Assembly (NCBI GenBank): GCA_964452165.1
Contig: CAYVKP010000004.1
Coordinates: forward strand, 5,333-69,332
DNA from: an uncultured Gammaproteobacteria bacterium
GTDB taxonomy: Bacteria; Patescibacteriota; Microgenomatia; Levybacterales; GWA1-39-11
Direction of reading: 5' to 3'
Length of the DNA: 64,000 nucleotides
The position numbers and the translations under genes are program-made. Positions 5,949 to 64,000 of the stretch are shown piece after piece; within the stretch, counting starts at the first letter, position 1, and the number at the start of each line of letters is the position of its first letter. The notes under the pieces are model-generated. The model searched no databases and was not told the DNA's origin. It saw nothing but the letters and a program-made list of their open reading frames with translations.

Positions 5949-6003
5949 CACGTTTTTACCCTTCACCTTGCCTAAAAATCCCTGACACTGTATTATTAAT
6001 TCT

Positions 6004-49083: not shown

Positions 49084-49117
49084 GAATAAATTATACCATA
49101 TCCACCAATCATTTCCC

Positions 49118-49126
49118 TGTTATAAT
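49118..49126 (+). promoter_or_regulatory. Extended -10 box TGtTATAAT 7 nt upstream of the obg ATG (leaderless-type)
   Basis: ccTGTTATAATataggatATG read directly. Confidence 0.35.
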
Positions 49127-49133
49127 ATAGGAT

Positions 49134-50105: not shown

Positions 50106-50212
50106 TCCTTGGAAAACCCCAACCGACAGTTACCATCTCTCACAACACACAAGGTATTGACACATCACAACCGGCTGCAGCCTAAATTCTTTTTGATATA
50201 ATTGTCAGCATA

Positions 50213-51369: not shown

Positions 51370-51387
51370 TAAGTTATAGAATTAACT

Positions 51388-52725
51388 ATGACCCTCACTT
51401 ACTTTGATTCCGTAGGAATCGTAATTTATCTTTTCATCGCGGCTTTTATTTACAAAAAGGCTTGGTTTTATTCTTTTTATTCATTCTTCAAGTTTATTTT
51501 AGTTTTCATTCTGACGCTTGTCGTAAGTCTTATGCTTGCTGCGCACACCCCAAAACTGCCGCTCACAAAACTTGAGCAGTCCCTAGTTATACAGTGGCTT
51601 CTATTCATAATTTTATGGAGAATTATTTCTTTCAAAACCATTTTTTTTGCCGTAACAGATGGGAAATTCAGCCTAAACAGATTTTTGTTCATGCATCATA
51701 TCGACCGATATATGAGCCTGGCGCCCTCCCTTGTCGCATCTTTTTTCATAACTTTTTCCCTGTTCACAGTGCTTGTTAGCGCAAGTACGGGAAACCTTGC
51801 TCTTCAACGACAAATTGAAACTTCTCAAATTGTTAAACCGCTTTCTTACAAAATTTATTTTGCAGCCGCATCAACCGGCGCAAATCTTTTTCAGGGCGTT
51901 GCATACAAACTTACACCGGTTTATGAGCCGACTAATCAGGTTGCTCCTGTTCCACAAAATTATGAGGCCGTTAATTCTTTCAAAGAAAAGGTTAACGAGC
52001 AAAGACAAGATATTGGTCTTACCCCGGTTGGAGATTTGGGAACTTTTATACCTACTAACGTTTATGTTTCCCCCAACGGAGCAGCTCCAGACAACGGAGC
52101 ACCCACGCCTGTCCAAGTTGACACTCAAATATTCGTCCCGGCGCAACTACCAAGTCCTACCCCAACTCCTTTCCCAACGCCAACGTTGGCGAGCCAACCC
52201 AACCAGCAATTTCCTATCTTTCCAATCGCAAATCCCTTCCAACAAGCTACTCAACCCCAACAGCCCACCCCAACATCTGCTCCTGCACCAACAGAAGAAC
52301 CCGCCCATTCCTTCACTATTCCCTTTGTTGCTCCCCAGGCAGATATCTCACAGGCCGAGCAGGACATTCTGAGATTAACGAATCAACAACGAGCGCAAAA
52401 TGGCTTAGGGCCACTTACAATTGATCCTGCAATTTCAGCAGTTGCACGCGCTCATAGCCGGGACATGTCAGTAAGAGGTTTTTTTGACCACATAAATCCT
52501 GACGGACTCTCCCCTTTTGACAGAATGAGAATTGGTGGAATTTCTTTCACAACTGCCGGCGAAAATATTGCGGGCGGTCCAACATCCGATATCATTATGA
52601 CTAACTGGATGAACTCTCCCGGACACCGTGCCAATATTTTGAGGAATACTTTTGGAAGAATCGGAATTGGAGTCGTTCAGGACTCAACCTACGGACTCAT
52701 GGCCACTCAGGACTTTGCAAATTGA
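51388..52725 (+). CDS. Membrane-anchored CAP/SCP (PR-1-like, YkwD-type) domain protein
   Basis: C-terminal HSRDMSVRGFFDHINPDG ... NIAGG ... WMNSPGHRANIL ... IGIGV; N-terminal TM helices and a Pro/Gln-rich linker. Confidence 0.65.
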   Translation: MTLTYFDSVGIVIYLFIAAFIYKKAWFYSFYSFFKFILVFILTLVVSLMLAAHTPKLPLTKLEQSLVIQWLLFIILWRIISFKTIFFAVTDGKFSLNRFLFMHHIDRYMSLAPSLVASFFITFSLFTVLVSASTGNLALQRQIETSQIVKPLSYKIYFAAASTGANLFQGVAYKLTPVYEPTNQVAPVPQNYEAVNSFKEKVNEQRQDIGLTPVGDLGTFIPTNVYVSPNGAAPDNGAPTPVQVDTQIFVPAQLPSPTPTPFPTPTLASQPNQQFPIFPIANPFQQATQPQQPTPTSAPAPTEEPAHSFTIPFVAPQADISQAEQDILRLTNQQRAQNGLGPLTIDPAISAVARAHSRDMSVRGFFDHINPDGLSPFDRMRIGGISFTTAGENIAGGPTSDIIMTNWMNSPGHRANILRNTFGRIGIGVVQDSTYGLMATQDFAN

Positions 52726-52796
52726 CATTTATTTGAACCTTCAAAATAGTTAATTGTCACATGTCAAAGGCGTTCTTCCTTGATATAATTTAATTA

Positions 52797-53255
52797 ATGA
52801 AGGTTCATAGGATTGTAATCGAACACATTCAACACGCCCACAAAATCAACAAACTTTCCCACCTTATAGTTCTCCTGAGTTTTCTTACAACTTTCGTTGT
52901 TACAAGGATAGTAGTTGGACTTCAAAATACAAATCTTCTCCCGACACCCCAGATTCAGCCTCATATTCACCACCTTGTCCCTGGAATTATTTTACTTTTG
53001 GTCGCAGGATACTTAGCAATTGCTTTCTGGGAAAATAAAAAATTTCATCTTTACATGTCGGCGCTTTTTGGAATTGGCTCGGCACTAACTCTTGACGAAT
53101 GTGCATTGTGGTTTTATCTCAGGGATGTTTATTGGGAAAAAGGGAGATTCGGTTTTGATGCTATAGTGATTGTGGCGACCTTGCTCTTTGTTACTTATGT
53201 CGTAGGCGAAGTTCACGCTTCAAAACGCCGGGCGGAAAAAAATGAAGTTTTCTAA
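52797..53255 (+). CDS. Membrane protein (152 aa)
   Basis: 4 TM helices. Confidence 0.45.
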   Translation: MKVHRIVIEHIQHAHKINKLSHLIVLLSFLTTFVVTRIVVGLQNTNLLPTPQIQPHIHHLVPGIILLLVAGYLAIAFWENKKFHLYMSALFGIGSALTLDECALWFYLRDVYWEKGRFGFDAIVIVATLLFVTYVVGEVHASKRRAEKNEVF

Positions 53256-53269
53256 TTGGCTTTTGCTTT

Positions 53270-54013
53270 TTGTTTGTTATAAAATGCCATATGGAAGAAA
53301 AAACCGGCGAAACAAAAGTCGAGACCGTTGAACACAAAACTGAACCCCCAATGAATAAAAAAGATCCTTTTTCGATTGTAGGGAAAGTTGCGGTCCTCTT
53401 GATAGTTGCTGCTCTTCTTGTTGGCGGCGGACTTTATCTTGGCAAAAGCATGAATAAAAATTCAAATTCGAACAATTCCGTAATGCCAAGCCCAACAGTA
53501 GAACAAGCAATGGAGGAATCGCCAACCGCCTCTCCCACCCCTTCAACAAGCTCGGGGCAGGCGCAAATGAAAACTGTTGTTGCCGGGCCTGCAAAAGGGA
53601 CAAGTTTTGGAGCTTACTCAATCGATATTCCAAGCGGTTGGACTGACAAACACGAAGTAACTGACATAACAGACAAGCTCACTATCACAAAAGGGGCGTA
53701 CGAGCTTTCAATTTACCAGGCGCCAATTGGAGGCGGAGGATGCCGCTACCCTGGACAATCTGATGCTCCAATGTCACAAAGATTTACGGAGTTTAAGGAA
53801 ATAGATGGAACAACTGGAAACATGATAAGAAGCTGGAACAAAACTGGAAATCCTGCGGGACAGATTGTCTACACGATTTGTCAGGGCGGAATCGGAGACA
53901 TATCCAGCTCCCCAACCTCATTTGGTGCTATCTCTGCAAAGTCTCCTGACCCGGCGGACGCGGCAACAATGAAAGATATTGATTCTATGATCTCCTCCAT
54001 CACCACAAAGTAG
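53270..54013 (+). CDS. Anchored extracytoplasmic protein (247 aa)
   Basis: TM, Ser/Pro linker, beta-rich C-terminal domain. Confidence 0.45.
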   Translation: MFVIKCHMEEKTGETKVETVEHKTEPPMNKKDPFSIVGKVAVLLIVAALLVGGGLYLGKSMNKNSNSNNSVMPSPTVEQAMEESPTASPTPSTSSGQAQMKTVVAGPAKGTSFGAYSIDIPSGWTDKHEVTDITDKLTITKGAYELSIYQAPIGGGGCRYPGQSDAPMSQRFTEFKEIDGTTGNMIRSWNKTGNPAGQIVYTICQGGIGDISSSPTSFGAISAKSPDPADAATMKDIDSMISSITTK

Positions 54014-54016
54014 AGC

Positions 54017-54253
54017 TTAAGACTGTCTTTTTTCGTGTCTTCTAATACCCATTGTTATATCTGCAAATATTATTCCACCCTTCTCCTTGAATATCTGCTC
54101 AACATTTTGTCTTCTCTGAGCTTGCAAATGAGCGAATGCTGCTTCTTTCTGGTTTAATTTTTCCTGAGTTATGATATTGAACGGGGTTTCGCTTGAAAGT
54201 CTAATGTCCGTTTTGGGATCGAGTTTTATAGCTTTTTGCTTCTCGGGTCTCAC
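54017..54253 (-). CDS. Small hypothetical protein (78 aa)
   Basis: AT-rich ORF; last host-like gene before the compositional shift. Confidence 0.3.
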   Translation of the reverse strand: MRPEKQKAIKLDPKTDIRLSSETPFNIITQEKLNQKEAAFAHLQAQRRQNVEQIFKEKGGIIFADITMGIRRHEKRQS

Positions 54254-54360
54254 GAGATCATTATATCATTAGGATCAAACTCGCCTGAATTACCCTAACT
54301 TATTATTATCATATACAGATTGGGGCAAGCTTATAGTTATTGCTACTCTACCCTCATTTT

Positions 54361-54526
54361 TGATATAATTTTCGTCTAGTTTCCCGGAGGTGACACAACC
54401 TCGGCATTTGCTTGCCGAAAAAGTGTCCTCTGAGACACTTTTTTCCTTCCAAGACGGAAGAGTCGACGAAGCAATTTGCAAGCTTTTGTTCGAAGCCAAG
54501 TCAAAAGAAGGTCGCACCTGAACAAT
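54361..54526 (+). promoter_or_regulatory. Regulatory cassette copy A: extended -10 (TGaTATAAT, 54361-54369), hairpin GTGTC-ctctga-GACAC plus T6 (54424-54445), conserved tail ...GGTCGCACCTGAACAA
   Basis: Read directly; homologous to copy B at 61849-62018. Confidence 0.55.
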
Positions 54527-54597
54527 CCGGGAATTAACATTTTTTAAAAAACTTTAAACAATTATTAGCTCGCACGATACTGAAAGGAGGCGGTCCC

Positions 54598-55107
54598 ATG
54601 ACGACAATTCTACTTCTGGTACTTGCGGGCATAGCAATCATCGTGATTGCTCGTTTCGCAGTATTACGCAAGAATAAATCCAAGCCTCAACCCATTGTCC
54701 ACGAGGTGGACGATCGTAACTGGGAGGAAGATATCGAAAACTTTATGGATACTGCTCTCAAAAGCAGCACGCTTGTTACGCATCTTCATGCTCAGTGGGA
54801 ATTCGCCCACAGACGGATGATAGCAGGGGGTGTATCCAAAAAGTTCGATCTCAAGCTCGGCGAAAAACCTGAGTGGATGACTTGGCCCGACATGCTCGTG
54901 GTCCAAGAAGGAGATCGATTTGACGTCAACGCATACTTCAAGCGCGCTAGGATCGGCGATGAATTAATCGTCGTTAACCGACGTGTCAGAATATTCGCGC
55001 TTCGCCGCCGTAAACAATACGGCTTTCGCGATGACGAGATAACTGTCCGCCGTCCCTACGCGGGAGATTTTCCTTACTTACTTGGTCCCTACAAGGCTAA
55101 GGATTAG
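54598..55107 (+). CDS. Island ORF 1: membrane-anchored hypothetical protein (169 aa)
   Basis: AGGAGG 7 nt upstream; N-terminal TM; GC-rich. Confidence 0.5.
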   Translation: MTTILLLVLAGIAIIVIARFAVLRKNKSKPQPIVHEVDDRNWEEDIENFMDTALKSSTLVTHLHAQWEFAHRRMIAGGVSKKFDLKLGEKPEWMTWPDMLVVQEGDRFDVNAYFKRARIGDELIVVNRRVRIFALRRRKQYGFRDDEITVRRPYAGDFPYLLGPYKAKD

Positions 55108-55140
55108 ACCGCGAAAGCGGATCCTCACGAAAGGAGGAAC

Positions 55141-55476
55141 ATGGCTTATAAGCCCAGATACGGATTGTCGCTAGAGGCTGAAGTTTGGGCATTTGCCATG
55201 CTTGTCATCCTCTCGATCGTGTTGCTCTGTGCGGTTATTTTCACTCTACTCGCCTATCAGAATCGCATCTCCGAAGAACGGGCCCTGCCTGTGCTTCGTC
55301 AGATCGCGAAAACCGAACGCGTGTATGTGACAAGCCACACCAACAACATACCGATCACCGGGCATCCGGGCGACGTTACATTCGAACTCACTGTAGACGG
55401 AAAGCAAGCTCGTGGCCACTGCACTAAGTACGACAAGGGCAGAAAGGTTACATGCACGCTTACCTACTACGAGTGA
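55141..55476 (+). CDS. Island ORF 2: membrane-anchored hypothetical protein (111 aa)
   Basis: AGGAGG RBS; one TM. Confidence 0.5.
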   Translation: MAYKPRYGLSLEAEVWAFAMLVILSIVLLCAVIFTLLAYQNRISEERALPVLRQIAKTERVYVTSHTNNIPITGHPGDVTFELTVDGKQARGHCTKYDKGRKVTCTLTYYE

Positions 55477-55512
55477 CTAGCAAGCGCATCAAGCGCGGGA
55501 GGAAACAGACAC

Positions 55513-55752
55513 ATGAATCGCATTTCCGATCCCGATAAGAAGTTTCCGGCACTCGCGGCCCAAAAGAAAAAGCCGCTGCTGGACGCCATCAAGGCCAACT
55601 TCACTCAGGATGAACTCGAGAGAGTTCTGAAAGACAGAAGCCGAACGATCGAAGTAACTATTCTGCTTGGAAACAAGCTTGGTAGTACCGCGACCGCAAC
55701 GGTGAGTCTTGACAGAGAAGACTTAGAGCGTAGAATAGCTCGAAAGTCATAG
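55513..55752 (+). CDS. Island ORF 3: hypothetical protein (79 aa)
   Basis: GGGAGGA RBS. Confidence 0.45.
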   Translation: MNRISDPDKKFPALAAQKKKPLLDAIKANFTQDELERVLKDRSRTIEVTILLGNKLGSTATATVSLDREDLERRIARKS

Positions 55753-55764
55753 CGCGGAGGAAAC

Positions 55765-56223
55765 ATGGAAACAAAGACGATTTCGTTCCAGCTGACCCAC
55801 GGCACGGCCGAGGTCTGCTACTACGTCAACGGCTACGGTGTTTACTTCACTGTGGTGACCAAGGGAGCTTCCCCTGTCATCCATGCGAAGAGCATCATCG
55901 AAGCCATCAAGGAGGACAACGTCGAGATTCAGCTCTGGCCCCGTCACTACACGTTCTACTGCCTGCAAACGCGGCGGTCGAACGAATATCGCGAGAAAGG
56001 CTATTTCTGTCTCGACGAGCTCTCCACGGAATATCACGGCGCGTTCCCGTTCCTAACGTGGAAACCAATCGCGATGTCCGAGGGAGAGAAACGCTTACGT
56101 AGCGAGGACACCATTCGTAAGGTGAGACCGCTTCGCAAGCACGTGAGAGAGGCATTCGCCAACTTCCTGGAGGAAGAAGAGAACGAGCCTCTACCCAAAC
56201 GGGATTGGCAACCACCGCACTAA
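55765..56223 (+). CDS. Island ORF 4: hypothetical protein (152 aa)
   Basis: GGAGGA RBS. Confidence 0.5.
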   Translation: METKTISFQLTHGTAEVCYYVNGYGVYFTVVTKGASPVIHAKSIIEAIKEDNVEIQLWPRHYTFYCLQTRRSNEYREKGYFCLDELSTEYHGAFPFLTWKPIAMSEGEKRLRSEDTIRKVRPLRKHVREAFANFLEEEENEPLPKRDWQPPH

Positions 56224-56247
56224 ACGCGGAAGAAAAGGAGCATCGCC

Positions 56248-56412
56248 ATGGAACCCCGCGAAAAAGAGAACAACCGACCGTTGCACAAGAAGATTTCGAT
56301 CTTCAACCTGATTTGTGCAATCGTGTCGATTACGCTCGCAGCATACCTGCTGATTCCGCGGATATTTTCTCGTCCCGAAAGCGACGAAGATAAACCTCCC
56401 GGTGGTAAATAA
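56248..56412 (+). CDS. Island micro-ORF: 54-aa single-TM peptide
   Basis: AAGGAG RBS; ISIFNLICAIVSITLAAYLLIP TM; below the 60-aa track cutoff. Confidence 0.35.
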   Translation: MEPREKENNRPLHKKISIFNLICAIVSITLAAYLLIPRIFSRPESDEDKPPGGK

Positions 56413-56480
56413 GCCCACCGAAATCAACCCATCAACTCTCGCTCGCAAGCGGGATACAAACACAACGAGGAGTAACAACG

Positions 56481-56837
56481 ATGAACTTCTTCGACCCCAG
56501 GGACAGCAGGACAGCACGATTCCGGGACTCGGAGGACGACGGTCAAAGCCCGCAGGCCCGACCTCGCACCCCGCGATCCGGAAACGCGATCAAGGAGCCG
56601 ACTCGCGCCGAAAAGATTCGGGCGATACTCGTGTTCTACACGAGAGGCGAACTCCAGACCATGTTCGAACGACTCCAAGCAAGAGGAAGTCGCACTAAAA
56701 GCGTCGAGATTGCGCTGGTACCATGGATTGGAACTGATCCGGGTGGCGGTGTGAACTCGCGGAAGGTCTCACTATCCCGAAAGGACTTGGAGCGAATCCT
56801 GAACGGCCAATGGATGGCAGGTTCAGTCCGAGGTTAG
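56481..56837 (+). CDS. Island ORF: basic hypothetical protein (118 aa)
   Basis: GAGGAG RBS. Confidence 0.45.
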   Translation: MNFFDPRDSRTARFRDSEDDGQSPQARPRTPRSGNAIKEPTRAEKIRAILVFYTRGELQTMFERLQARGSRTKSVEIALVPWIGTDPGGGVNSRKVSLSRKDLERILNGQWMAGSVRG

Positions 56838-56874
56838 GATACAAGACGGCTTTACCCCGCCGAAGGAGGCAATC

Positions 56875-57105
56875 ATGCCAGAAGACCGAGCAAAGGCTTG
56901 GATTCCAAGCGCAGAACTCGCTGGGGAAAACCTCGATGAGTATCTGAGCAAAGTCCCTAAAGGATCGGAAGTCCAATGCTGGAGCGCTGCTCAAATCACC
57001 CGAGTCTACACTTCTCGTCATTACAGGGTTCGCGACTTGCGAAGTCACATACCCGACAAGAAGGAGCTTGAGGAGCACGCCAAGCTGAAGGACAAAGCAT
57101 CATGA
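56875..57105 (+). CDS. Island ORF: hypothetical protein (76 aa)
   Basis: AAGGAGG RBS. Confidence 0.4.
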   Translation: MPEDRAKAWIPSAELAGENLDEYLSKVPKGSEVQCWSAAQITRVYTSRHYRVRDLRSHIPDKKELEEHAKLKDKAS

Positions 57106-57254
57106 AGACCGCAGGCCAAAAGGCGCTTACCGGTATCAAAATCCTGGTGGAAGTTGCGGTAGCAGTCTCGGCGGCACTAGTCGTCTTGGCTCTACTCGAT
57201 TCCATCATGGATGACGAGGCCGAAGAACGCCAAACCGGCACCTACGGAAAATAA
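57102..57254 (+). CDS. Island micro-ORF: 50-aa single-TM peptide (ATGA-coupled)
   Basis: Start overlaps the upstream stop (ATGA); ILVEVAVAVSAALVVLALL TM. Confidence 0.3.
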   Translation: MKTAGQKALTGIKILVEVAVAVSAALVVLALLDSIMDDEAEERQTGTYGK

Positions 57255-57291
57255 CCAGCGCTAGTGCGCTAGGAAAAGAAAGAGGACAACC

Positions 57292-57702
57292 ATGCACGTT
57301 GAAATCACGGCCACTGTCGCTCAGTGGTTCTACGACAATTATCGCGAAAAAGCGCTGTTCGACAACCTACGGGAAGCATGGCAACAAGCTGTCACTGACA
57401 AGCTGATTCATTCCAAAGACGAGTACGAGGTAGCAACCACCTTCCTACCCGCCAGCCTAAGCGCCGGTCGGCTTCTATCACTCAAGATAGACTGCTACGG
57501 AGTGTGGCCGTTCATGGCGGGCACCGGATTCATGGAGCACCTTGGAAGAGTTACCTCGGACGCGGTCCGAAGATACCATACGGGCTCCAACAGCCTGAAG
57601 ATGAGGGTGATAGTCGAGTCTCACCGTGAGGCAACAGTCGCACCCAACATCCCGCTCGAACTCGCTGAACCCGTCACACAGGGCAATCCTGAGAAAGGTT
57701 AA
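57292..57702 (+). CDS. Island ORF: hypothetical protein (136 aa), paralog of 58122..58538
   Basis: AAGAGGA RBS; MHVEITATV... is similar to MYVKITAEV.... Confidence 0.5.
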   Translation: MHVEITATVAQWFYDNYREKALFDNLREAWQQAVTDKLIHSKDEYEVATTFLPASLSAGRLLSLKIDCYGVWPFMAGTGFMEHLGRVTSDAVRRYHTGSNSLKMRVIVESHREATVAPNIPLELAEPVTQGNPEKG

Positions 57703-57754
57703 ATCGCGGTGCGCGGTTACCTAACGATCCCGCCTAGTTAGAAGGAGAATTCTC

Positions 57755-58108
57755 TTGGAGATCGATGTCTGCACCACTAAGTCCGGACGCTGCGTCCGCT
57801 ACCGCGCGTATTGGGCAAGCCGGGAATTCACGGACCTTTTCTTCCAGTGGGGAGAGGAGTTCCGGGATACCGACAGCGTCGACGTCAGCGAGGCCATCGA
57901 GGCAATCGTTGTGTCTGCGGGAATTGGGATTCATGATTACCAGTTCCTACAGGTCCTACCTGCCAGCGACCCCCGCCTAGCTCTGGTGGCATATATGGTG
58001 GTGGTCCAACAAGGGCCGCAAGGCATCATCGCTACGCGAACGAAGGAGGGACATTCAGTCCCTGCGATGGTCGTGAGCGAATTTCTGGCCAGCGTCGACG
58101 CGGCCTAA
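57755..58108 (+). CDS. Island ORF: hypothetical protein (117 aa, TTG start)
   Basis: AAGGAG 7 nt upstream of the TTG at 57755. Confidence 0.45.
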   Translation: MEIDVCTTKSGRCVRYRAYWASREFTDLFFQWGEEFRDTDSVDVSEAIEAIVVSAGIGIHDYQFLQVLPASDPRLALVAYMVVVQQGPQGIIATRTKEGHSVPAMVVSEFLASVDAA

Positions 58109-58121
58109 AGAAGGAGACAGA

Positions 58122-58538
58122 ATGTACGTCAAGATCACGGCTGAAGTGGACCGTAACTTCGTCAAGGCCCTGGGCGAAAACGACTTCATCCGGCTAAACG
58201 CAGGACTGATAACCAGCTGGAAAAGCGCCGTCGCAAAGGACTTCGGAATCCACACCGGAGACATCGACGCATCCATGTTCGAAGTCTACGCGTTCGGCGG
58301 ACAGCTCATGACGATCACGGTCCAACGAATCCTGTCTGTTGTCGGTGACGAAGACTTTGCAGACAGTCACGCCAAGCTGGCAGAAGTGCTTGAGAAGGAA
58401 ACCGCAGGGATCCTTCAACCGCACATGCCTGAGAGAAGAAACAGCACGGTCATGGTTATCATCGACCCGTTGCTCATTGCTCATGTCCACAAACTCGATG
58501 TCCGCAGCTGGTCCGCGGAGGGCGTCAGAGTCAACTAG
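58122..58538 (+). CDS. Island ORF: hypothetical protein (138 aa), paralog of 57292..57702
   Basis: AAGGAG RBS. Confidence 0.5.
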   Translation: MYVKITAEVDRNFVKALGENDFIRLNAGLITSWKSAVAKDFGIHTGDIDASMFEVYAFGGQLMTITVQRILSVVGDEDFADSHAKLAEVLEKETAGILQPHMPERRNSTVMVIIDPLLIAHVHKLDVRSWSAEGVRVN

Positions 58539-58574
58539 CCGGCCCCTTGGCCGAGAAACCGAAAGGTAACGAAC

Positions 58575-59444
58575 ATGGCAACAACTTACAAAGAGCCCGT
58601 TCGTGTGGGCATCAACGGTTTCGGCGACGTGGGGCGATGGGCCTTCCACGAAATCCGCGATCGATATGGCGAGCAGATCAAGGTCGTCGCCATTAACGAC
58701 GCCGACATAGAAACCGACCGGGAAGTAATCATGGCGGCACTTCTCGCGCGCTACCAGGGTGAACTCCCTTCCTGGCTCAACTACAACAGCCACGGCGGAC
58801 TGTCGGTTGACGGCGTCTACGTCTGGCTTTCAAGCTGGGACAAACCCGAGTTAATCCCTTGGGACAACTACGGAGTCCAGATCGTCGTTGACTGCACGGG
58901 CAAGTTCTCGAGCCGCGACAAGGCTTTCCGTCACTTGCACGGTGGTACCGTAGTCAAAAAAGTCATCTGCGTGATGCCGGCAGAAGACATGGACATGCTG
59001 GTCAGGGTGGGGACTGATCACATGCTTTACAAGCCGGAGAGCCAACACCTGATCGGCCAGGACATGGGCGGCATGAGCACCTCCCGTGAGTGCGGCGAAA
59101 ACCTCGCTCACCTGACGGCACTCGTGGCAAGAAAGGGATGGGAACCAATCCCTGTCATGTCGCGACCAAGCGATTACACCACGACATACCCAACGGTGTT
59201 GACGGGCTCTTTCGGGAGTGGGGAAGGCGGAAAACCCCCGATGGCGACTTGCCCAGTCGACGATGAACCCCTCGTCGCTACGCTGGAGTTCGACGGCTTC
59301 GAGTTCATATGCGTAGTCTGCGATGAGAAGTACGGCTTCTTCGCCCCCAAACCGGCGACGTGGACCCAAGAGCTACAGACTCGGTACGACGAGCTGCAGG
59401 AAAGATACCTGGCAGAACGAGAAAAAAGACAAGCCGGCTCGTAG
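58575..59444 (+). CDS. GAPDH-derived NAD-binding pseudo-enzyme with C-terminal Cys-rich (zinc-ribbon-like) tail
   Basis: VRVGINGFGDVGRWAFHEI...KVVAIND matches the GAPDH GINGFGRIGR...IVAIND. Collinear through DNYGVQIVVDCTGKFSSRDKAFRHLHGGTVVKKVICV (cf. DEVGVDVVAEATGLF..HITAGAKKVVMT). Active-site SCTTNC is replaced by STSREC, so the catalytic Cys is lost. C-terminal CPVDDEP...ICVVCDEKYGFF. Confidence 0.55.
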   Translation: MATTYKEPVRVGINGFGDVGRWAFHEIRDRYGEQIKVVAINDADIETDREVIMAALLARYQGELPSWLNYNSHGGLSVDGVYVWLSSWDKPELIPWDNYGVQIVVDCTGKFSSRDKAFRHLHGGTVVKKVICVMPAEDMDMLVRVGTDHMLYKPESQHLIGQDMGGMSTSRECGENLAHLTALVARKGWEPIPVMSRPSDYTTTYPTVLTGSFGSGEGGKPPMATCPVDDEPLVATLEFDGFEFICVVCDEKYGFFAPKPATWTQELQTRYDELQERYLAEREKRQAGS

Positions 59445-59481
59445 CAAGCTGCCCTGACTTACGTCGGAGAAGGATAAAGAG

Positions 59482-59757
59482 GTGGTATCCGAAGACTCTG
59501 GGGACAGTCGCAGCTTCACCATAAATGACGGACCTGATACGGAGGTGGAAAACAGGATCCGTGCAACACTTCTTGGGATTAGACAAAGAGGACTCAAGGG
59601 CTGCTGGCTCTTTATTCCTCCTCGTCTCGAGAAGTTGGCGCAAGACACGCGCAAAGATCTTGAGATGACGACGTGGGAGGCATCGTTCTCCTATCTACCG
59701 GGAACCAAGCGGGAGAAACCCGAGCAAGATCAACCAACGGAGGGAGGTGAAGAATGA
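59482..59757 (+). CDS. Island ORF: hypothetical protein (91 aa, GTG start)
   Basis: SD-like AGGATAAAGAGG upstream. Confidence 0.4.
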   Translation: MVSEDSGDSRSFTINDGPDTEVENRIRATLLGIRQRGLKGCWLFIPPRLEKLAQDTRKDLEMTTWEASFSYLPGTKREKPEQDQPTEGGEE

Positions 59758-60221
59758 GAACTAACACTAGCGCGATCCTGTTCACGGGAACGATCGACGC
59801 ATGCTGCGTATACCTGGCTTATTCGGGAATGAAAACCCCGTACCGGCCGGAGCCCTTCCTAACAGCAGCAGTAGTCAGCGCCCTGTTTGGTTACCTGACA
59901 GGCAAAATGCTCGTCGTGGAGCAACCCTCTAACGGAGACCACGCTGATTGGATGGGCCTAGCCGCTCTGGTCACGATGATCCTCTGCTGCTTGGGAGCCC
60001 TAGCATTGCTGCGATGGCAACCTTTCAGCGAGCTCAAGCTGACCATCATGGAGACCGTCTTTTGGTTTACGGGACTTGCCCTGTGGCCGATTGCGGGTTT
60101 CCTGATCACCGACGCCAAGGTTATCACCGACAACAACAGGAGGAAGACGGATGAAGCTACTGCTTACGGGAGCTGTGCTCGGCCTCATGACAGCCCTGTT
60201 CATCTCCATCGGCAAAACTGA
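59754..60221 (+). CDS. Island ORF: polytopic membrane protein (155 aa; C-terminal 35 aa dubious)
   Basis: ATGA-coupled start; GGAGG RBS; 4 TM helices; the tail overlaps the micro-ORF at 60151. Confidence 0.45.
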   Translation: MRTNTSAILFTGTIDACCVYLAYSGMKTPYRPEPFLTAAVVSALFGYLTGKMLVVEQPSNGDHADWMGLAALVTMILCCLGALALLRWQPFSELKLTIMETVFWFTGLALWPIAGFLITDAKVITDNNRRKTDEATAYGSCARPHDSPVHLHRQN

Positions 60222-60258
60222 GAGCAAGCAGCCCGTCAACGCTGCTATGACAATGTGA
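60151..60258 (+). CDS. Island micro-ORF: 35-aa TM peptide overlapping the previous gene's 3' end in another frame
   Basis: AGGAGG 7 nt upstream; MKLLLTGAVLGLMTALFISIG. Confidence 0.25.
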   Translation: MKLLLTGAVLGLMTALFISIGKTESKQPVNAAMTM

Positions 60259-60268
60259 GGAGAACGAC

Positions 60269-60997
60269 ATGAGCAACGATTGGCGTAGCCAAGCAAGGCG
60301 ACAACAAGGCCGTCCGCGCCGCGTAGAACCGGCTCAACCGGCAGACGCGCAAGCGCCTGAACAAACCGAAGGCCTGGCCTTCGAAGACACGACAGTGTTC
60401 GAGGAACACGACACTAAGCCAGACCAGACCGAAGGGCCTGTCTTGGCAAACGCACTCGAGTGCGACATCGTCGAAGCCGATGACAAGGTCCACGTCTTCG
60501 TAGAGGACGCGGAGACTGACACGTCCTACGACAGACTGGAGGAACTGATCGCAGGAATTCCTGACGAATCTGGCCACATCGTCGTGGTCTACAACAACGT
60601 CCAACGAGGCACAGCTCTCAACCTCGCCAGGCAGTTCGGTCGCAAATGGCCATTGGACGTGGACATTCGCCCACGACCACTCAAGGCAGTCGACCCATCT
60701 GACAATAAGGTCCACTACCTGGACTCTGGCGTCACAATAAGAGGCAACGCGTACGGCCCTCTGACTGACATCATCAGGACGATTCCGGATGAGGAAAGCC
60801 ACACGCTCTTCGTCAACAACATCGTACAGCGCGGTATCGCTGTCGCTGTTGCGATAGATCTCGGTCGTAAGCATGACCTAGACGTCCGAGTCCGCCCAAC
60901 GGAAGGCGAAACCTTGCGTGAAGCGGCAGAGCAAGCGGGTCTGACAGTCGGCGTCGAGATCGATTCGAAAGACGGTCTTACCAACCCGCTCAACTAG
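60269..60997 (+). CDS. Island ORF: acidic protein (242 aa) with tandem duplicated about 85-aa domain
   Basis: IPDESGHIVVVYNNVQRGTALNLARQFGRKWPLDVDIRPRP and IPDEESHTLFVNNIVQRGIAVAVAIDLGRKHDLDVRVRPTEG repeats; GAGGAG RBS. Confidence 0.5.
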   Translation: MSNDWRSQARRQQGRPRRVEPAQPADAQAPEQTEGLAFEDTTVFEEHDTKPDQTEGPVLANALECDIVEADDKVHVFVEDAETDTSYDRLEELIAGIPDESGHIVVVYNNVQRGTALNLARQFGRKWPLDVDIRPRPLKAVDPSDNKVHYLDSGVTIRGNAYGPLTDIIRTIPDEESHTLFVNNIVQRGIAVAVAIDLGRKHDLDVRVRPTEGETLREAAEQAGLTVGVEIDSKDGLTNPLN

Positions 60998-61054
60998 TAG
61001 AAATCTGAGAGGTCGAAGTTCGACACTCCAGTGAAGTTAACAAGGAGAACACGG

Positions 61055-61561
61055 ATGACAATTCAAGTTTCACCTGCGCAGCACGCTGCCGACGCCGTGA
61101 AGTTCTGGGCCACCCACATCCTGGGTATCATCAACGCCTCTGATGGTCGTCTCTACGGCGCCCGCGTGCTTGTGGTTCACAGCGATGAGCCCATCGAGAA
61201 GCGCGACGCTCCGGACAAGGAGAAGACCGCGGAAGGCCTGGAGAAACTCATCGTTCTCGAATGGACGCTGGGCGAGGAAGACGCCGACTTCAACAAGCAA
61301 GCTCGGAACAGGGCCCTTCGTTCTTACCAGAACGGCCGGCCAAGCCGAGAAGATACGGGACAAGGCCCAAACGATGCAGGACAAGGCCCCGGCGCCATTA
61401 TCACAGATGAATACGACATCGTCTCCGTCTGCGGTCTTGGCTTTACCGGCAACGAACCCGTCGCAACGCGCATCGGCGAGCGCATTTCTTATCTGAGGGC
61501 GCAAGCCGCTGGCAACACCAAAGTAGCTGGCAGCAGCGATAAGGAAGACGGCGCCAACTAA
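61055..61561 (+). CDS. Island ORF: hypothetical protein (168 aa)
   Basis: AAGGAG 8 nt upstream of the ATG at 61055; the track start at 61031 is an upstream GTG. Confidence 0.45.
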   Translation: MTIQVSPAQHAADAVKFWATHILGIINASDGRLYGARVLVVHSDEPIEKRDAPDKEKTAEGLEKLIVLEWTLGEEDADFNKQARNRALRSYQNGRPSREDTGQGPNDAGQGPGAIITDEYDIVSVCGLGFTGNEPVATRIGERISYLRAQAAGNTKVAGSSDKEDGAN

Positions 61562-61848
61562 TTCCCGGAGCAACACAACTGAATATCAGGTGCGGAAACA
61601 ACGCTAAGACGATCTGATCGATCGAAGCGTTCGCGGAAGAGATGCGAGATATGTATAGTGTAGGAGGCTCACGCCTTTCTACTTTAGTCAATTAATTTTG
61701 ACATATACCTCTACCTCCATCTCTTCCGCCCACACCATAAATTTGAAAATCTAAACTTAAATTTACAATTTTTAATTATTTCTTCTTATCAATCCAGAAT
61801 ATAATCTTCGTACTAAATTCTTACTCTTTTGCGACGTGGATTTCCTTT

Positions 61849-62018
61849 TGTTATAATCCAGATCAAGTAGTTCTCTGTGACGGCGCGAATCACGACTTTT
61901 GCTTGTCTTGATATAGTGCCCCACAACGGGACACTTTTTTCTTTGGAAGACGTGACGTCCAGAAGCAAACGCAAGCTTCAAAGACTACTCGCCTGAAGAA
62001 GAGATCGCACCTGAACAA
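61849..62018 (+). promoter_or_regulatory. Regulatory cassette copy B: -10 boxes (TGtTATAAT 61849-61857; TTGATATAGT 61907-61916), hairpin GTGCCCC-acaac-GGGACAC plus T6 (61916-61940), conserved tail ...GATCGCACCTGAACAA
   Basis: Read directly; sits in a roughly 500-nt AT-rich non-coding gap inside the GC-rich island. Confidence 0.55.
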
Positions 62019-62056
62019 AAGGAACTTATACAAATTCATGGAAGGACGGTACCCTC

Positions 62057-62347
62057 ATGGCACGAATAAAAACCGTTCTTGTTGCTGACAACGACATACC
62101 TGGTGACTACGTCATCTTCCCAATTCGTTGGGTCTACAAAATCGACCCCATGCGAGGACAGGAAGTTGACGCGGCCGTATTACTCGGTCTCACCAATTTG
62201 GTCAACGGTAACAAACGTAAGATGATCTATTCCACCAGGAAGAGAGACGCCCAACGAATGAAGAGGCGAATCGAAAGCCTAGCGAGAAAAATCCCACCTA
62301 GGAGAAAACGGAGAAGGAGGAAAGAAGAAACTCAACCCGCCAACTAA
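62057..62347 (+). CDS. Island ORF: hypothetical protein with Arg/Lys-rich tail (96 aa)
   Basis: First gene after cassette B; C-terminal PPRRKRRRRKEE. Confidence 0.45.
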   Translation: MARIKTVLVADNDIPGDYVIFPIRWVYKIDPMRGQEVDAAVLLGLTNLVNGNKRKMIYSTRKRDAQRMKRRIESLARKIPPRRKRRRRKEETQPAN

Positions 62348-62370
62348 ACCAACAGGAGGAGGACACGAGC

Positions 62371-62580
62371 GTGACGAACAGCGGTTACGAATATGACGAC
62401 GAGCGTCCTAGAGAGGATCCACCTCGCCAACCTTTTGGTGGCGCCGTGAGACCTAAGAATCGCAGACCGGTTGGTGATAGCCAATCCGGCATTTTGGCCG
62501 ACCCGGACTGCGAGGACTGCGACGGTTCAAGTGTCAACAAGTACACAGGCCAACGCTGTCACTGCACTCGCAACATCTAG
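62371..62580 (+). CDS. Island ORF: small Cys-rich protein (69 aa, GTG start)
   Basis: AGGAGGAGG RBS; DPDCEDCDGSSVNKYTGQRCHC. Confidence 0.35.
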   Translation: MTNSGYEYDDERPREDPPRQPFGGAVRPKNRRPVGDSQSGILADPDCEDCDGSSVNKYTGQRCHCTRNI

Positions 62581-62626
62581 TCCCGCTCGAAAGAGCTTTC
62601 AACCCAACATGGGAGGAGGTGATGAA

Positions 62627-62749
62627 ATGAACACAACGGCGAGTAAGTTCGTCCAGAGACACTGGATCAAGATCGCGATCTTCGCGTCCTTGGTTTGGAT
62701 GCTCTCGGGTATCGGTAAGTATTTCGACGGCTCACCGCCTTCGAACTAG
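62627..62749 (+). CDS. Island micro-ORF: 40-aa single-TM peptide
   Basis: GGGAGGAGG RBS; WIKIAIFASLVWMLSGIG TM. Confidence 0.3.
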   Translation: MNTTASKFVQRHWIKIAIFASLVWMLSGIGKYFDGSPPSN

Positions 62750-62798
62750 GGATTCCATCAACTAACTACTGGCACGATTCGATTCGGAGGGAAGATCC

Positions 62799-63065
62799 TT
62801 GAAGCAGCAGAGGCAGACAGAGCAGCGGTATCAAGGTACCACGCGAGACAGATCTCGCAGTCCACAACCGCAGCAACCTGCCCGAAGCGCTATCAGGATA
62901 CCCGACCACCATTTCAGCGAAGAGCTGGATAGAGCCCTGATTCAGGTGAAAAGGACAGGCGTTCCGCTTGTCGTAAAGACCTACGAGCAGGAAATGGAAG
63001 CCAGAAGGAGGGCTAGAGAGAGGTACGGAATCACCGGCACCATAGACGTTACCGTCAAGGGTTAA
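62799..63065 (+). CDS. Island ORF: hypothetical protein (88 aa, TTG start)
   Basis: GGAGGG 7 nt upstream. Confidence 0.4.
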   Translation: MKQQRQTEQRYQGTTRDRSRSPQPQQPARSAIRIPDHHFSEELDRALIQVKRTGVPLVVKTYEQEMEARRRARERYGITGTIDVTVKG

Positions 63066-63123
63066 TCCCCAACACGAGCGTCATCAACCCAACTACTGGG
63101 AGTTCACATGGAGGAACCACGAG

Positions 63124-63366
63124 TTGAAACAAGATACACGAGACCACGCCCCTGGTGAAGACTGGTACATTGGACCGGATCTTCTGGACTGGCCAAGACG
63201 CATAAAGAGCATTCTGGCTAAGGTCAGCATCAGGCTCGGCGAACATGTCTACGTGTCTCAAGAACCACACCAGCTAATGGACGTGGTCCTGGAGGAAGCC
63301 AAGTCCTTCCCCCACCTGATAGAACACGACCGAATCCATTCCGCTCCTGCCCAAGTCGCGGCATGA
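63124..63366 (+). CDS. Island ORF: hypothetical protein (80 aa, TTG start)
   Basis: GGAGGA upstream. Confidence 0.35.
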   Translation: MKQDTRDHAPGEDWYIGPDLLDWPRRIKSILAKVSIRLGEHVYVSQEPHQLMDVVLEEAKSFPHLIEHDRIHSAPAQVAA

Positions 63367-63418
63367 GCACCGTATCAACCATCAACCCAGACCCCTGGGA
63401 AAAGGAGTAGCCCCCGCC

Positions 63419-63736
63419 ATGACGCAAACAGTAGTAGAATTTCACGACGCCTTCAGCATGAAGGAGGTCAAGCTCCGGGGTTGTCCAAAAGGATGCAAGC
63501 ATCCCAAGGCCGGCACCATCGAGCCCGACACTGAGTTGACACCCAACAACTGTGAGTACATCCAGATGTACCACGATCACATCGACTGCGGTGCCAACTT
63601 CGTCGTGATGCCCACGGAGGGAGTCGAGCGAGTGAAGTCAGCCTTCCTGCCCGACGTCGAGTATCGACTCGTCCCACACCCTCTGCTGGCCCAAGCAAGC
63701 GATCAACTGCCGACGGCAACGAGTCCGCTGGCATGA
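63419..63736 (+). CDS. Island ORF: hypothetical protein (105 aa) with C-x3-C and C-x..C residues
   Basis: AAGGAG RBS. Confidence 0.4.
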   Translation: MTQTVVEFHDAFSMKEVKLRGCPKGCKHPKAGTIEPDTELTPNNCEYIQMYHDHIDCGANFVVMPTEGVERVKSAFLPDVEYRLVPHPLLAQASDQLPTATSPLA

Positions 63737-64000
63737 CCACGGCAACAACGTCTACCGCGCTGGTCGACGAGATCGTCAAACAACACGTCCGAGTGTACAT
63801 ACGGCGCCAAGCCAAGCGCAACACGCCGTGCGGTTACATTCTCGGAGAGCCGATGCGGACGATAGGACCTGTGACCCTTTACGTATGTGGTCGCTGTGCA
63901 CCGATTCTTCCGGTCGACGCCATTTTCGGCTTGATTGACGACCCGGACACCGCTCTGCCCGAGGATCTTGACCTCGAGTTTGAGTTAATGCCGGTACACC
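63734..64000 (+). CDS. Island ORF, 3'-truncated by the window end (ATGA-coupled)
   Basis: ATG overlaps the upstream TGA; the ORF is open to position 64000. Confidence 0.4.

What the first reader, a model, noticed from the sequence alone, without database searches (positions are those of the whole stretch)
58575..59444. Catalytically dead GAPDH-derived NAD-binding protein fused to a Cys-rich C-terminal tail, encoded inside the mobile-element-like island
The first about 150 residues are collinear with glyceraldehyde-3-phosphate dehydrogenase: GINGFGDVGR for GINGFGRIGR, VVAIND for IVAIND, and the whole Rossmann domain through the start of the catalytic domain. The catalytic Cys of SCTTNC is replaced (STSREC). 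The protein then diverges into a unique tail with CPVDDEP...ICVVCDEKYGFF. GAPDH-fold proteins moonlight in RNA binding and NAD sensing. A pseudo-enzyme version among early genes of a mobile element could act as an NAD(H) binder or sensor (NAD depletion is a common antiphage mechanism) or as a decoy.
Basis: partly seen in the sequence, partly recalled or inferred. Interest (0 to 1): 0.65.

Follow-up and report, generated by a model that had tools for sequence, protein, structure and literature searches.

The report
Catalytic-domain-less GAPDH fused to phage zinc-ribbon
This gene encodes a one-of-a-kind hybrid protein: the cofactor-binding half of the glycolytic enzyme GAPDH, with the catalytic half cut out, joined to a small zinc-binding module otherwise found in phages of high-GC bacteria. 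It cannot be an enzyme, and what it does is unknown.

Summary
The ORF (58575-59444, +, 289 aa) is real and identical in three independent per-run assemblies. Residues 9-161 are a GAPDH NAD-binding domain (Pfam 1.6e-16; profile E 1.9e-27). The similarity stops just before the SCTTNC active-site motif, and no catalytic domain is present. Residues 177-189 (LAHLTALVARKGW) match the extreme C-terminus of the closest GAPDHs. So the catalytic domain was excised domain-precisely, and the whole structural cofactor domain (N-terminal part plus C-terminal helix) was kept.

The tail is not unique. Residues 218-288 belong to an undescribed family with about 110 database hits at E <= 0.001. Members are 66-150 aa proteins with a zinc ribbon (C-x2-D/C ... 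C-x2-C) plus a helix, encoded in replication and early regions of actinophage-like contigs. The family is absent from Pfam, PHROGs and NCBIfam.

The fusion itself is a singleton among 1.84 billion representative proteins. It lies in a 55% GC block of SD-led ORFan genes joined to a 40% GC Patescibacteria (Levyibacteriota-like) chromosome, and that junction is reproduced in three assemblies.

"Catalytically dead" is firmly supported. "Intact NAD pocket" is only partly supported: GxGxxG and the beta2 Asp are kept, but R10, R77, S119 and N313 are lost. The function is untested. Interest is moderate.

The parts
58575..59444 (+). Complete ORF, 289 aa, including the stop codon
   Evidence: ORF list. 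The product P0001 is identical in Logan contigs L001-L003 from three sequencing runs.
58561..58566 (+). Shine-Dalgarno-like GAAAGG, 8 nt before the ATG
   Evidence: Read directly from the sequence. Nearly all island ORFs have GGAGG-type SDs at this distance.
58599..59057 (+). Residues 9-161: GAPDH NAD-binding (Rossmann) domain, with GxGxxG (G15-G17-G20) and the beta2 Asp (D42)
   Evidence: Pfam PF00044 1.6e-16; hhalign E 1.9e-27; TIGR01534 positions 1-150; 17/21 GAPDH-invariant positions kept.
59058..59102 (+). Residues 162-176 (QDMGGMSTSRECGEN): a short connector standing where the roughly 165-residue catalytic domain should be; it cannot be aligned reliably to GAPDH
Evidence: No profile alignment extends past residue 161. 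There is no Gp_dh_C hit.
59103..59141 (+). Residues 177-189 (LAHLTALVARKGW): remnant of the GAPDH C-terminal helix, ending at the natural GAPDH C-terminus
   Evidence: tblastn of P0002 res 326-337 gave 10/12 identical. This is the best local alignment of res 162-217 to the closest GAPDHs, with shuffle p <= 0.002, and it ends at their last residue. AF2 predicts a helix at 170-186.
59142..59225 (+). Residues 190-217: Pro/Thr/Gly-rich linker, with no homologue and low model confidence
   Evidence: No hit for this stretch in the exhaustive search. pLDDT is below 50.
59226..59438 (+). Residues 218-288: zinc-ribbon (C226, D229, C246, C249) plus a long C-terminal helix; a member of an undescribed phage small-protein family
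   Evidence: The search gave 115 hits at E <= 0.001 and 31 at E <= 1e-10 (these counts include the self-match, and the 115 also five spurious repeat proteins); family members share 45-57% identity. Column statistics: C226 81/82, C246 82/82, C249 81/82, position 229 D 50 / C 24. The AF2 model with the family alignment has pLDDT 91.8.
54262..54560 (+). Copy 1 of the duplicated AT-rich regulatory block at the left edge of the island, holding a promoter-like TTGCTA-18-TGnTATAAT (54340-54369); probable start of the transcription unit that contains the ORF
   Evidence: Repeat families D2/D7; alignment to 61743-62056; promoter scan.
61743..62056 (+). Copy 2 of the regulatory block (TTGCGA-17-TGnTATAAT at 61829-61857), heading the next gene set
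54262..64000 (+). Foreign island as far as the window shows it: GC 0.48-0.59 against 0.40-0.46 for the flanking host genes; all genes on the + strand, SD-led, with no family hits
   Evidence: Composition. No Pfam, PHROG or PADLOC hits for the 20 ORFs. The junction with host DNA is reproduced in L093-L095.

Best explanation
The ORF encodes a chimeric, non-enzymatic protein built from two unrelated modules. Module 1 (res 1-189) is a type I GAPDH from which the catalytic domain was removed domain-precisely. What remains is the complete structural cofactor-binding domain: the Rossmann part plus the C-terminal helix, which in GAPDH lies in a groove of that domain. This module ends at the natural GAPDH C-terminus. 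Module 2 (res 218-288) follows a roughly 28-residue linker. It is a zinc ribbon plus an amphipathic helix, from a family of small proteins encoded in replication/early regions of actinophage-like genomes. In that family the module is occasionally fused to other domains on either side, which suggests a portable binding or oligomerisation module. All of this is shown. The origin is inferred: a phage-borne gap gene lost its catalytic domain and then its stop codon, and so fused to a downstream zinc-ribbon gene. The mechanism is also inferred: the protein is made from the island's first transcription unit, and the zinc-ribbon/helix module anchors or dimerises a Rossmann scaffold. That scaffold still binds an adenine (di)nucleotide-type ligand (NAD(H), ADP-ribose or a derivative) through GxGxxG and the beta2 Asp. 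It would therefore act as a binder or sensor, not as a catalyst. My confidence in the architecture is about 0.9, and in the ligand-binding role about 0.3.
For: The GAPDH N-domain is significant by four methods and always stops at residue about 161. No Gp_dh_C hit was found, and the TIGR01534 score is 74 against a cutoff of 367. Residues 177-189 match the last 12-13 residues of the closest GAPDHs, 10/13 identical with shuffle p <= 0.002, and the match ends at their terminus. [quoted passage not shown] Of GAPDH-invariant N-domain positions, 17/21 are kept, and 22/35 near-invariant ones, at only about 39% overall identity. This is the pattern expected of a fold kept under constraint. The tail domain has 115 hits at E <= 0.001 (this count includes the self-match and five spurious repeat proteins), and the query keeps every hallmark residue of the family. 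Its model has pLDDT 91.8. The one family member with CxxC...CxxC hits Zn_ribbon_TFIIB. Family members sit in phage contigs next to PDDEXK nuclease, AAA_24, primase and PolA genes (L087); ParB (L085); integrase and methylase (L084); WhiB, DUF5131 and a 3'-5' exonuclease (L089); DnaB (L092); and TerL (L090). Extra domains are fused to the family module in P0022, P0024, P0034, P0053, P0057, P0089 and P0129. The ORF's GC3 (0.71) and its SD match those of its island neighbours. The ORF is identical in three per-run assemblies.
Against: Only one sequence exists. No orthologue of the fusion was found among 5.8 billion clusters or 1.84 billion representatives, so selection (dN/dS) cannot be measured. 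Several canonical NAD-contact side chains are changed, two of them to Asp (R10->D18, R77->D88), along with S119->V133. N313, the S-loop and C149/H176 are absent, so NAD binding may be weak or lost. The full-length model is mediocre: pLDDT 63 overall and below 50 for residues 188-263. It was also built on an alignment that mispaired the C-terminal half. The C-terminal-helix match is short (13 residues), and the GAPDHs that show it are related to each other, so they are not independent tests. There is no evidence of expression.
Confidence: 0.45

Rival explanations
1. The protein is an evolutionary by-product with no selected function. A captured gap gene decayed by deletion and happened to read through into a functional small zinc-ribbon gene. 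Only the tail matters, and the GAPDH part is passenger sequence on its way to loss.
For: The fusion is a singleton. Several NAD-contact residues are lost. The connector and linker have no homologues and are predicted to be disordered. The tail family works as stand-alone 66-150 aa proteins.
Against: The deletion removes exactly one structural domain and keeps both non-contiguous pieces of the other. Random decay would rarely do this. The ORF has 189 residues without a stop or frameshift. 17/21 invariant fold positions are kept despite about 60% overall divergence from every known GAPDH. GC3 is fully adjusted to the island, which implies long residence as an open frame.
Confidence: 0.3
2. It is a nucleic-acid-binding protein. 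The zinc ribbon and the Rossmann surface bind DNA or RNA (GAPDH's dinucleotide fold is reported to bind AU-rich RNA), and the protein acts in replication or gene regulation of the element.
For: Family members lie among replication, recombination and regulator genes. The tail resembles zinc ribbons of TFIIB and RNA polymerase subunits only weakly. RNA binding by the GAPDH NAD domain rests on my own knowledge of the literature and was not checked here.
Against: No significant structural or sequence match to any nucleic-acid-binding family: Foldseek E >= 0.14. The tail is acidic rather than basic around the ribbon (DDEPLVATLEFDGFEF), as read directly from the sequence.
Confidence: 0.1
3. It is a dominant-negative subunit or decoy that poisons or mimics the host cell's GAPDH.
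For: It derives from GAPDH and is catalytically dead.
Against: The catalytic domain and S-loop, which make most inter-subunit contacts in the GAPDH tetramer (established structural knowledge; the S-loop description is in PMC5385343), are absent. Identity to any GAPDH is 39% or less by BLAST.
Confidence: 0.04
4. It is a real gapA, or the fusion is an assembly or sequencing artefact.
For: None, beyond the strong N-terminal similarity to GAPDH.
Against: No catalytic domain is encoded in any frame nearby: tblastn of eight GAPDHs against the whole window found only the N-domain and the C-terminal helix piece. The 289-aa product is identical in three per-run assemblies, and the host/island junction is reproduced in three contigs.
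Confidence: 0.02

Closest known systems
Type I glyceraldehyde-3-phosphate dehydrogenase (GapA; Pfam Gp_dh_N + Gp_dh_C; NCBIfam TIGR01534). The nearest sequences are Dehalococcoidia-type GAPDHs (P0002-P0005), followed by Acidothermus and Streptomyces enzymes.
   Same: The Rossmann NAD-binding domain is collinear over res 9-161, at 37-39% identity by BLAST and 43% to the profile. GxGxxG, the beta2 Asp, the TG-F adenine-pocket residues and the end of the C-terminal helix are kept.
   Different: The whole catalytic domain is absent, including Cys149/His176, the phosphate sites and the S-loop. The whole-protein score is five-fold below the family cutoff. R10, R77 and S119 are substituted. A foreign C-terminal domain is attached.
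An undescribed phage small-protein family (consensus PMATCPxDGEPLVxTxEFxGxEFxCxxCGxxxGFLxPxP..TPEL.AR..EL), found in actinophage-like metagenomic contigs and IMG/VR UViGs
   Same: Residues 218-288 share 45-65% identity with members and keep all conserved positions, including the C / D-or-C / C / C ligand set and the helix stripe L267-R270-L274-Y278.
   Different: Members are mostly stand-alone proteins of 66-150 aa. Here the module is the C-terminal domain of a 289-aa protein, and the usual N-terminal DDxI..TA..LL segment is replaced by the linker. No family member has a GAPDH part.
TFIIB-type / generic zinc ribbons (Pfam PF13453 Zn_ribbon_TFIIB)
   Same: Two knuckles about 17 residues apart flank a beta-hairpin. 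The CxxC...CxxC member P0024 hits PF13453 at 1.3e-5, 24.9 bits against a cutoff of 22.
   Different: The query and most members do not reach any Pfam threshold. The second ligand is usually Asp. There is no significant structural neighbour in PDB or BFVD.
Phage-borne full-length GAPDH (phrog_21942)
   Same: The N-terminal 150 positions of the PHROG profile match, at 9.4e-18.
   Different: The PHROG profile is 344 positions long, i.e. a full enzyme, and only positions 2-149 are matched. The GenBank 'phage' records that match carry ordinary GAPDH genes and cover 57% or less of the query.

Membership tests
Type I GAPDH (EC 1.2.1.12; TIGR01534; Pfam Gp_dh_N + Gp_dh_C) | N-terminal NAD-binding Rossmann domain (PF00044) with GxGxxG and the beta2 Asp | tested here: met
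   PF00044 scores 60.8 bits against a cutoff of 31.7; hhalign E 1.9e-27. G15/G17/G20 and D42 are present.
Type I GAPDH (EC 1.2.1.12; TIGR01534; Pfam Gp_dh_N + Gp_dh_C) | Catalytic domain (PF02800, about 160 residues, eight-stranded sheet) | tested here: not met
   No PF02800 hit even at E <= 10. All alignments end at res 161. Only 128 residues follow, and 71 of them belong to another family.
Type I GAPDH (EC 1.2.1.12; TIGR01534; Pfam Gp_dh_N + Gp_dh_C) | Catalytic Cys149 in S-C-T-T-N-C, and His176 | tested here: not met
The motif region cannot be aligned. No His176 equivalent exists, because that strand is deleted.
Type I GAPDH (EC 1.2.1.12; TIGR01534; Pfam Gp_dh_N + Gp_dh_C) | Whole-protein score above the curated equivalog cutoff | tested here: not met
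   TIGR01534 scores 74.2 bits against a cutoff of 367.2.
Type I GAPDH (EC 1.2.1.12; TIGR01534; Pfam Gp_dh_N + Gp_dh_C) | C-terminal helix that packs into the N-domain groove | tested here: inconclusive
   There is a sequence remnant at res 177-189, 10/13 identical with p <= 0.002, and a predicted helix at 170-186. Its packing could not be inspected.
Type I GAPDH (EC 1.2.1.12; TIGR01534; Pfam Gp_dh_N + Gp_dh_C) | NAD+ binding and G3P oxidation activity | not testable with these tools
   This needs biochemistry. The sequence shows that R10, R77 and S119 are substituted and N313 is absent.
Unnamed phage zinc-ribbon/helix small-protein family (hits) | Ligand pattern C-x2-(D/C)-x16-C-x2-C | tested here: met
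   C226, D229, C246 and C249 are present. Family frequencies at these columns are 81/82, D 50 + C 24 of 82, 82/82 and 81/82.
Unnamed phage zinc-ribbon/helix small-protein family (hits) | Conserved core EPLV-T...E-F-C and G-F-x-x-P, followed by the helix T-x-E-L-x-A-R-x-x-E-L | tested here: met
   E231, P232, L233, V234, T236, E243, F244, G254, F255, P258, T264, E266, L267, R270, E273 and L274 are all present. Identity is 65.6% to the L084 gene by tblastn (61% by BLASTP) and 56-57% to others.
Unnamed phage zinc-ribbon/helix small-protein family (hits) | Stand-alone small protein (66-150 aa) | tested here: not met
   Here the module is the C-terminal domain of a 289-aa protein. Other fusions do exist in the family, for example P0034 (264 aa) and P0089 (247 aa).
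Unnamed phage zinc-ribbon/helix small-protein family (hits) | Encoded in a phage genome, in a replication or early region | tested here: inconclusive
   This holds for relatives. The island here has no recognisable phage gene in the part the window shows.
Unnamed phage zinc-ribbon/helix small-protein family (hits) | Zinc binding | not testable with these tools
   Inferred from the ligand pattern and from the Zn_ribbon_TFIIB hit of P0024.
Known anti-phage defence proteins (PADLOC-DB) | A match to any defence-system model | tested here: not met
   No hit at E <= 0.1 for the protein, four tail-family members or three island neighbours.

The most novel reading that the evidence does not exclude
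The protein is a new kind of phage-derived ligand trap or sensor. A GAPDH Rossmann domain, stripped of catalysis, binds NAD(H) or an NAD-derived signalling nucleotide (ADP-ribose, or cyclic ADPR isomers made by TIR-type defences). The zinc-ribbon/helix module oligomerises it or docks it onto a target. On this reading, the zinc-ribbon family would be a general adaptor that actinophage-like elements fuse to different effector domains. The example sits in a Patescibacteria genome and may have been acquired from a phage of the symbiont's high-GC host.
Probability: 0.1. Interest if true: 0.7.

Novelty: new variant of a known kind. Interest (0 to 1): 0.4.

Why it matters
If the protein is functional, it is a clean natural example of pseudo-enzyme formation by excision of a domain. 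Both non-contiguous pieces of the GAPDH cofactor domain are kept, the catalytic domain is replaced by about 15 residues, and the product is re-used as a module in a phage-type fusion. That would give an experimentally simple handle (a 189-residue stand-alone GAPDH NAD domain) on non-glycolytic "moonlighting" functions of this fold.

Independently of that, the work uncovers an undescribed zinc-ribbon/helix family. It has about 110 hits at E <= 0.001, sits in actinophage replication regions, and is absent from Pfam, PHROGs and NCBIfam. The work also documents a reproducible junction between a 40% GC Patescibacteria chromosome and a 55% GC block with phage-like gene organisation. This bears on gene flow between CPR episymbionts and the phages of their hosts.

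If the protein is only a relic, the finding is a curiosity.

Tried and rejected
1. Tail as a degenerate GAPDH C-terminus. MAFFT of the query with GAPDHs aligned DEPLVATLEFDG to TEEPVVSMDMKG and CDEKYGFF to WYDNEWGY, which suggested this reading. I rejected it after the exhaustive search showed that the tail belongs to an independent family at 45-57% identity.

2. MAFFT also aligned LAHLTALV to the helix after the catalytic Cys, with 2 identities. I rejected this in favour of the C-terminal helix, with 10/13 identities and p <= 0.002.

3. Chimeric co-assembly of CPR and high-GC DNA. I suspected this from the GC jump and the change in SD usage. It was not supported, because three per-run contigs span 52172-55843 at >= 99.97% identity.

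4. Paralogy of ORFs 57292-57702 and 58122-58538, guessed by eye. BLASTP found nothing at E <= 0.1.

5. Long Ig-repeat proteins P0065, P0090, P0114, P0115 and P0119 in the hit list. These are spurious repeat matches (FRCVVTDKYG-like).

6. Relatives of the fusion or of island neighbours. None were found in GTDB representative genomes, IMG/VR, GenBank phages or PLSDB plasmids.

7. Synteny downstream of Obg in 80 related genomes. Only L006 is partly syntenic, and the locus ends before the insertion point, so no empty site was recovered.

8. The window's last ORF is not on record, so the island could not be extended past position 64000.

10. An internal start at M223. The Met is a conserved residue preceded by conserved Pro in most family members, so an internal start is not needed to explain it.
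Full report
OBSERVATION. A GAAAGG Shine-Dalgarno lies 8 nt upstream. The product occurs unchanged in contigs assembled separately from three sequencing runs (SRR9179560, -62, -63). Those contigs match the window at 99.95-100% identity. The ORF, including the junction between its two halves, is therefore not an assembly error.

N-TERMINAL HALF.
- Pfam Gp_dh_N matches residues 9-113 at 1.6e-16, 60.8 bits against a cutoff of 31.7, and nothing else matches even at E <= 10.
- phmmer against PDB sequences returns only GAPDHs, the best at 4e-19, aligned over query residues 9-162.
- hhalign against a profile of 12 GAPDHs gives E 1.9e-27 and 43% identity over residues 9-161. It ends at HLIG, which corresponds to H-I-I-S just before SNASCTTNC.
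- NCBIfam TIGR01534 (type I GAPDH) aligns residues 10-160 to profile positions 1-150 of 330. It scores 74 bits against a cutoff of 367.
- Foldseek of the AlphaFold model finds GAPDH structures at about 2e-13 over about 155 columns.
- Among positions invariant in 14 GAPDHs, the query keeps 17 of 21, and 22 of 35 near-invariant ones. The kept positions include the GxGxxG glycines, N41 (beside the beta2 Asp D42, which is itself retained and near-invariant), and G109 and F111 of the T108-G109-x-F111 adenine-pocket motif.
- The lost positions include R->D at position 18 (R10 in B. stearothermophilus numbering) and A->M at 134. R77->D88 and S119->V133 are read from the hhalign alignment, where P0002's FAERDP pairs with the query's SSWDKP and IISAPA with ICVMPA.

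These positions are the classic NAD-contact residues (my knowledge of GAPDH structures and UniProt annotation, not tested here). The cofactor site is therefore only partly preserved.

WHAT FOLLOWS RESIDUE 161. MAFFT instead paired C173 with the catalytic Cys. Neither pairing is supported by any profile method, because all of them stop at residue 161.

A tblastn of eight GAPDHs against the whole window found only two pieces: the N-domain, and a 12-residue match of the GAPDH C-terminus to 59103-59138. I then aligned residues 162-217 locally against the C-terminal 200 residues of 14 GAPDHs, with 1000 shuffles each. For the closest GAPDHs the best match is always LAHLTALVARKG(W) against LADLTALVA(E/S)KG(F/M). 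The p-value is <= 0.002, and the match ends on the last residue of the GAPDH.

[quoted passage not shown] AlphaFold predicts a helix at residues 170-186.

The simplest reading is that the catalytic domain was excised and replaced by about 15 residues. That domain is about 165 residues long and carries Cys149, His176, both phosphate sites and the S-loop. Both non-contiguous parts of the structural cofactor domain were kept.

THE TAIL. It returned 115 proteins at E <= 0.001 and 31 at E <= 1e-10; these counts include the self-match, and the 115 also includes the five spurious hits noted below. All family hits match only residues about 216-288 of the protein, at 45-57% identity, and most are 66-150 aa long. 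Five very long Ig-repeat proteins in the list are spurious.

The family consensus is PMATCPxDGEPLVxTxEFxGxEFxCxxCGxxxGFLxPxP..TPEL.AR..EL. The three Cys are present in 81-82 of 82 sequences. The fourth ligand position is Asp in 50 and Cys in 24. This is the pattern of a zinc ribbon whose second ligand may be Asp. The one member checked with CxxC...CxxC hits Zn_ribbon_TFIIB at 1.3e-5.

The query keeps every conserved position. A model of the tail built on the family alignment has pLDDT 91.8 and consists of short strands followed by a 24-residue helix. Foldseek finds no significant neighbour in PDB or BFVD, only weak zinc-ribbon look-alikes.

The family is absent from Pfam, PHROGs and NCBIfam. 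It is also absent from GenBank phage and PLSDB records. So the tail is neither unique nor a GAPDH remnant.

WHERE THE TAIL FAMILY LIVES. Members are encoded on phage-like metagenomic contigs of 50-71% GC.
- L087 (52 kb) carries a PDDEXK nuclease, MerR, AAA_24, DUF669, a DUF3987 primase, PolA and a tail gene.
- L084 carries a transglycosylase, VRR-NUC, an integrase and a methylase.
- L085 has the gene directly after a ParB-like gene.
- Four IMG/VR UViGs also carry it. Their neighbours include WhiB, DUF5131, an Rv2179c-like exonuclease, DnaB and TerL.

These are actinophage-type replication or early regions. Seven of the members I inspected carry extra domains on one side or the other, so the module is portable.

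THE FUSION IS A SINGLETON. The word-indexed search of 5.8 billion clusters found only the protein itself and ordinary 334-347 aa GAPDHs at <= 39% identity. None of the tail-family hits has a GAPDH part. The nearest GAPDHs belong to a lineage whose named members are Dehalococcoidia, followed by Acidothermus and Streptomyces. At 39% identity the donor cannot be named.

CONTEXT. Positions 1 to about 54.0 kb have about 40% GC. They carry Obg, tRNAs and other housekeeping genes, and the Obg protein is 50-69% identical to Patescibacteria/Levyibacteriota MAG proteins.

From about 54.26 kb to the end of the window the GC is 0.48-0.59 and GC3 reaches 0.72. Every gene is on the + strand, and almost every one has a GGAGG-type SD. 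The host genes examined instead have TATAAT boxes 7-10 nt before the ATG and no SD. None of the 20 island ORFs other than the GAPDH-like ORF itself has a significant Pfam, PHROG or PADLOC hit, nor a relative in IMG/VR or GenBank phages.

The AT-rich block at 54262-54560 recurs at 61743-62056. Each copy holds an extended -10 promoter-like site: TTGCTA-18-TGnTATAAT at 54340-54369 and TTGCGA-17-TGnTATAAT at 61829-61857. The GAPDH-like gene probably belongs to the first of at least two transcription units.

I suspected a chimeric assembly. However, three per-run contigs span the host/island junction (52172-55357, 53608-55843 and 53450-55406) at >= 99.97% identity. No tRNA lies at the junction, and no integrase is visible in the window. 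The right end of the island lies beyond position 64000.

A recent paper shows that a prophage of an actinobacterial host binds to, and to a limited extent infects, its Patescibacteria episymbiont (PMC13578794). This offers one plausible route by which actinophage-like DNA could reach a CPR genome. That link is my inference, not a result.

HOW IT PROBABLY WORKS. Shown: the two-module architecture, the loss of catalysis, the conservation of the fold core of module 1, and the conservation of all hallmark residues of module 2.

Inferred origin: a phage-borne gap gene lost its catalytic domain, and then lost its stop codon. The GAPDH-derived part ends exactly at the natural C-terminus (W189), and a 28-residue linker of no known origin follows. 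The gene thereby fused to a downstream zinc-ribbon gene.

Inferred mechanism: the zinc-ribbon/helix module anchors or oligomerises a Rossmann scaffold that still binds an adenine (di)nucleotide through GxGxxG and the beta2 Asp.

The two Arg-to-Asp changes near the pyrophosphate site, and the loss of N313 and the S-loop, argue against tight, canonical NAD binding. I give the ligand-binding role about 0.3. The main rival, also at about 0.3, is that the N-module is a passenger relic. With a single sequence, selection cannot be measured.

COMPARISON AND NOVELTY. The protein fails membership of type I GAPDH on three tested defining features, and it is a divergent-architecture member of an unnamed phage zinc-ribbon family. 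It is best called a new variant of known kinds: a GAPDH-derived pseudo-enzyme fused to a phage zinc-ribbon module. The domain-precise excision and the unnamed family are the most interesting points. The singleton status and the lack of any functional evidence keep the score moderate.

Noticed in passing
window 54262-54560 and 61743-62056: The island contains two copies of an AT-rich block of about 300 nt. Each has an extended -10 promoter-like site, followed by a leader of about 200 nt with conserved motifs (GGACACTTTTTTC, GAAGCAA..GCAAGCTT, TCGCACCTGAACAA). This could be a shared operator or a leader RNA that controls two gene sets.
   Followed up: partly
window 49100-53300 versus 54598-63736: The host (Patescibacteria-like) genes examined have TATAAT boxes 7-10 nt upstream of the ATG and no Shine-Dalgarno, which is a leaderless-type arrangement. 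Nearly every island gene has a strong GGAGG SD. The two regions therefore use different translation-start signals on one contig.
   Followed up: partly
window 60269-60997 (+): This 242-aa ORFan contains an internal tandem duplication of about 67 residues (res 69-135 and 143-210; local score 121; 0 of 1000 shuffles reached it). It has only a sub-threshold NikA-like hit at its C-terminus.
   Followed up: partly
hits; loci L084, L085, L087-L092: A zinc-ribbon/helix small-protein family with about 110 database hits at E <= 0.001, located in actinophage replication and early regions, has no model in Pfam, PHROGs or NCBIfam. It also has no match in GenBank phage records. It occurs fused to several different unannotated domains.
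   Followed up: partly
window 55513-55752 and 56481-56837 (+): These two small island ORFs share weak similarity over about 58 residues (29% identity, E 0.001 within the island set). They may be diverged paralogues.
   Followed up: no
window 5856-5949 (+): ARAGORN reports a 94-nt 'tRNA-???' with a two-base anticodon. Rfam's tRNA model does not confirm it at the gathering threshold. It may be a false call or an unusual, intron-bearing tRNA.
   Followed up: no
window 54017-54253 (-): A 78-aa ORF with host-like GC (0.38) sits exactly between the last clear host gene and the island's regulatory block. The Logan gene calls also predict it. It has no family hit and no homologue in 80 related Patescibacteria loci.
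   Followed up: partly
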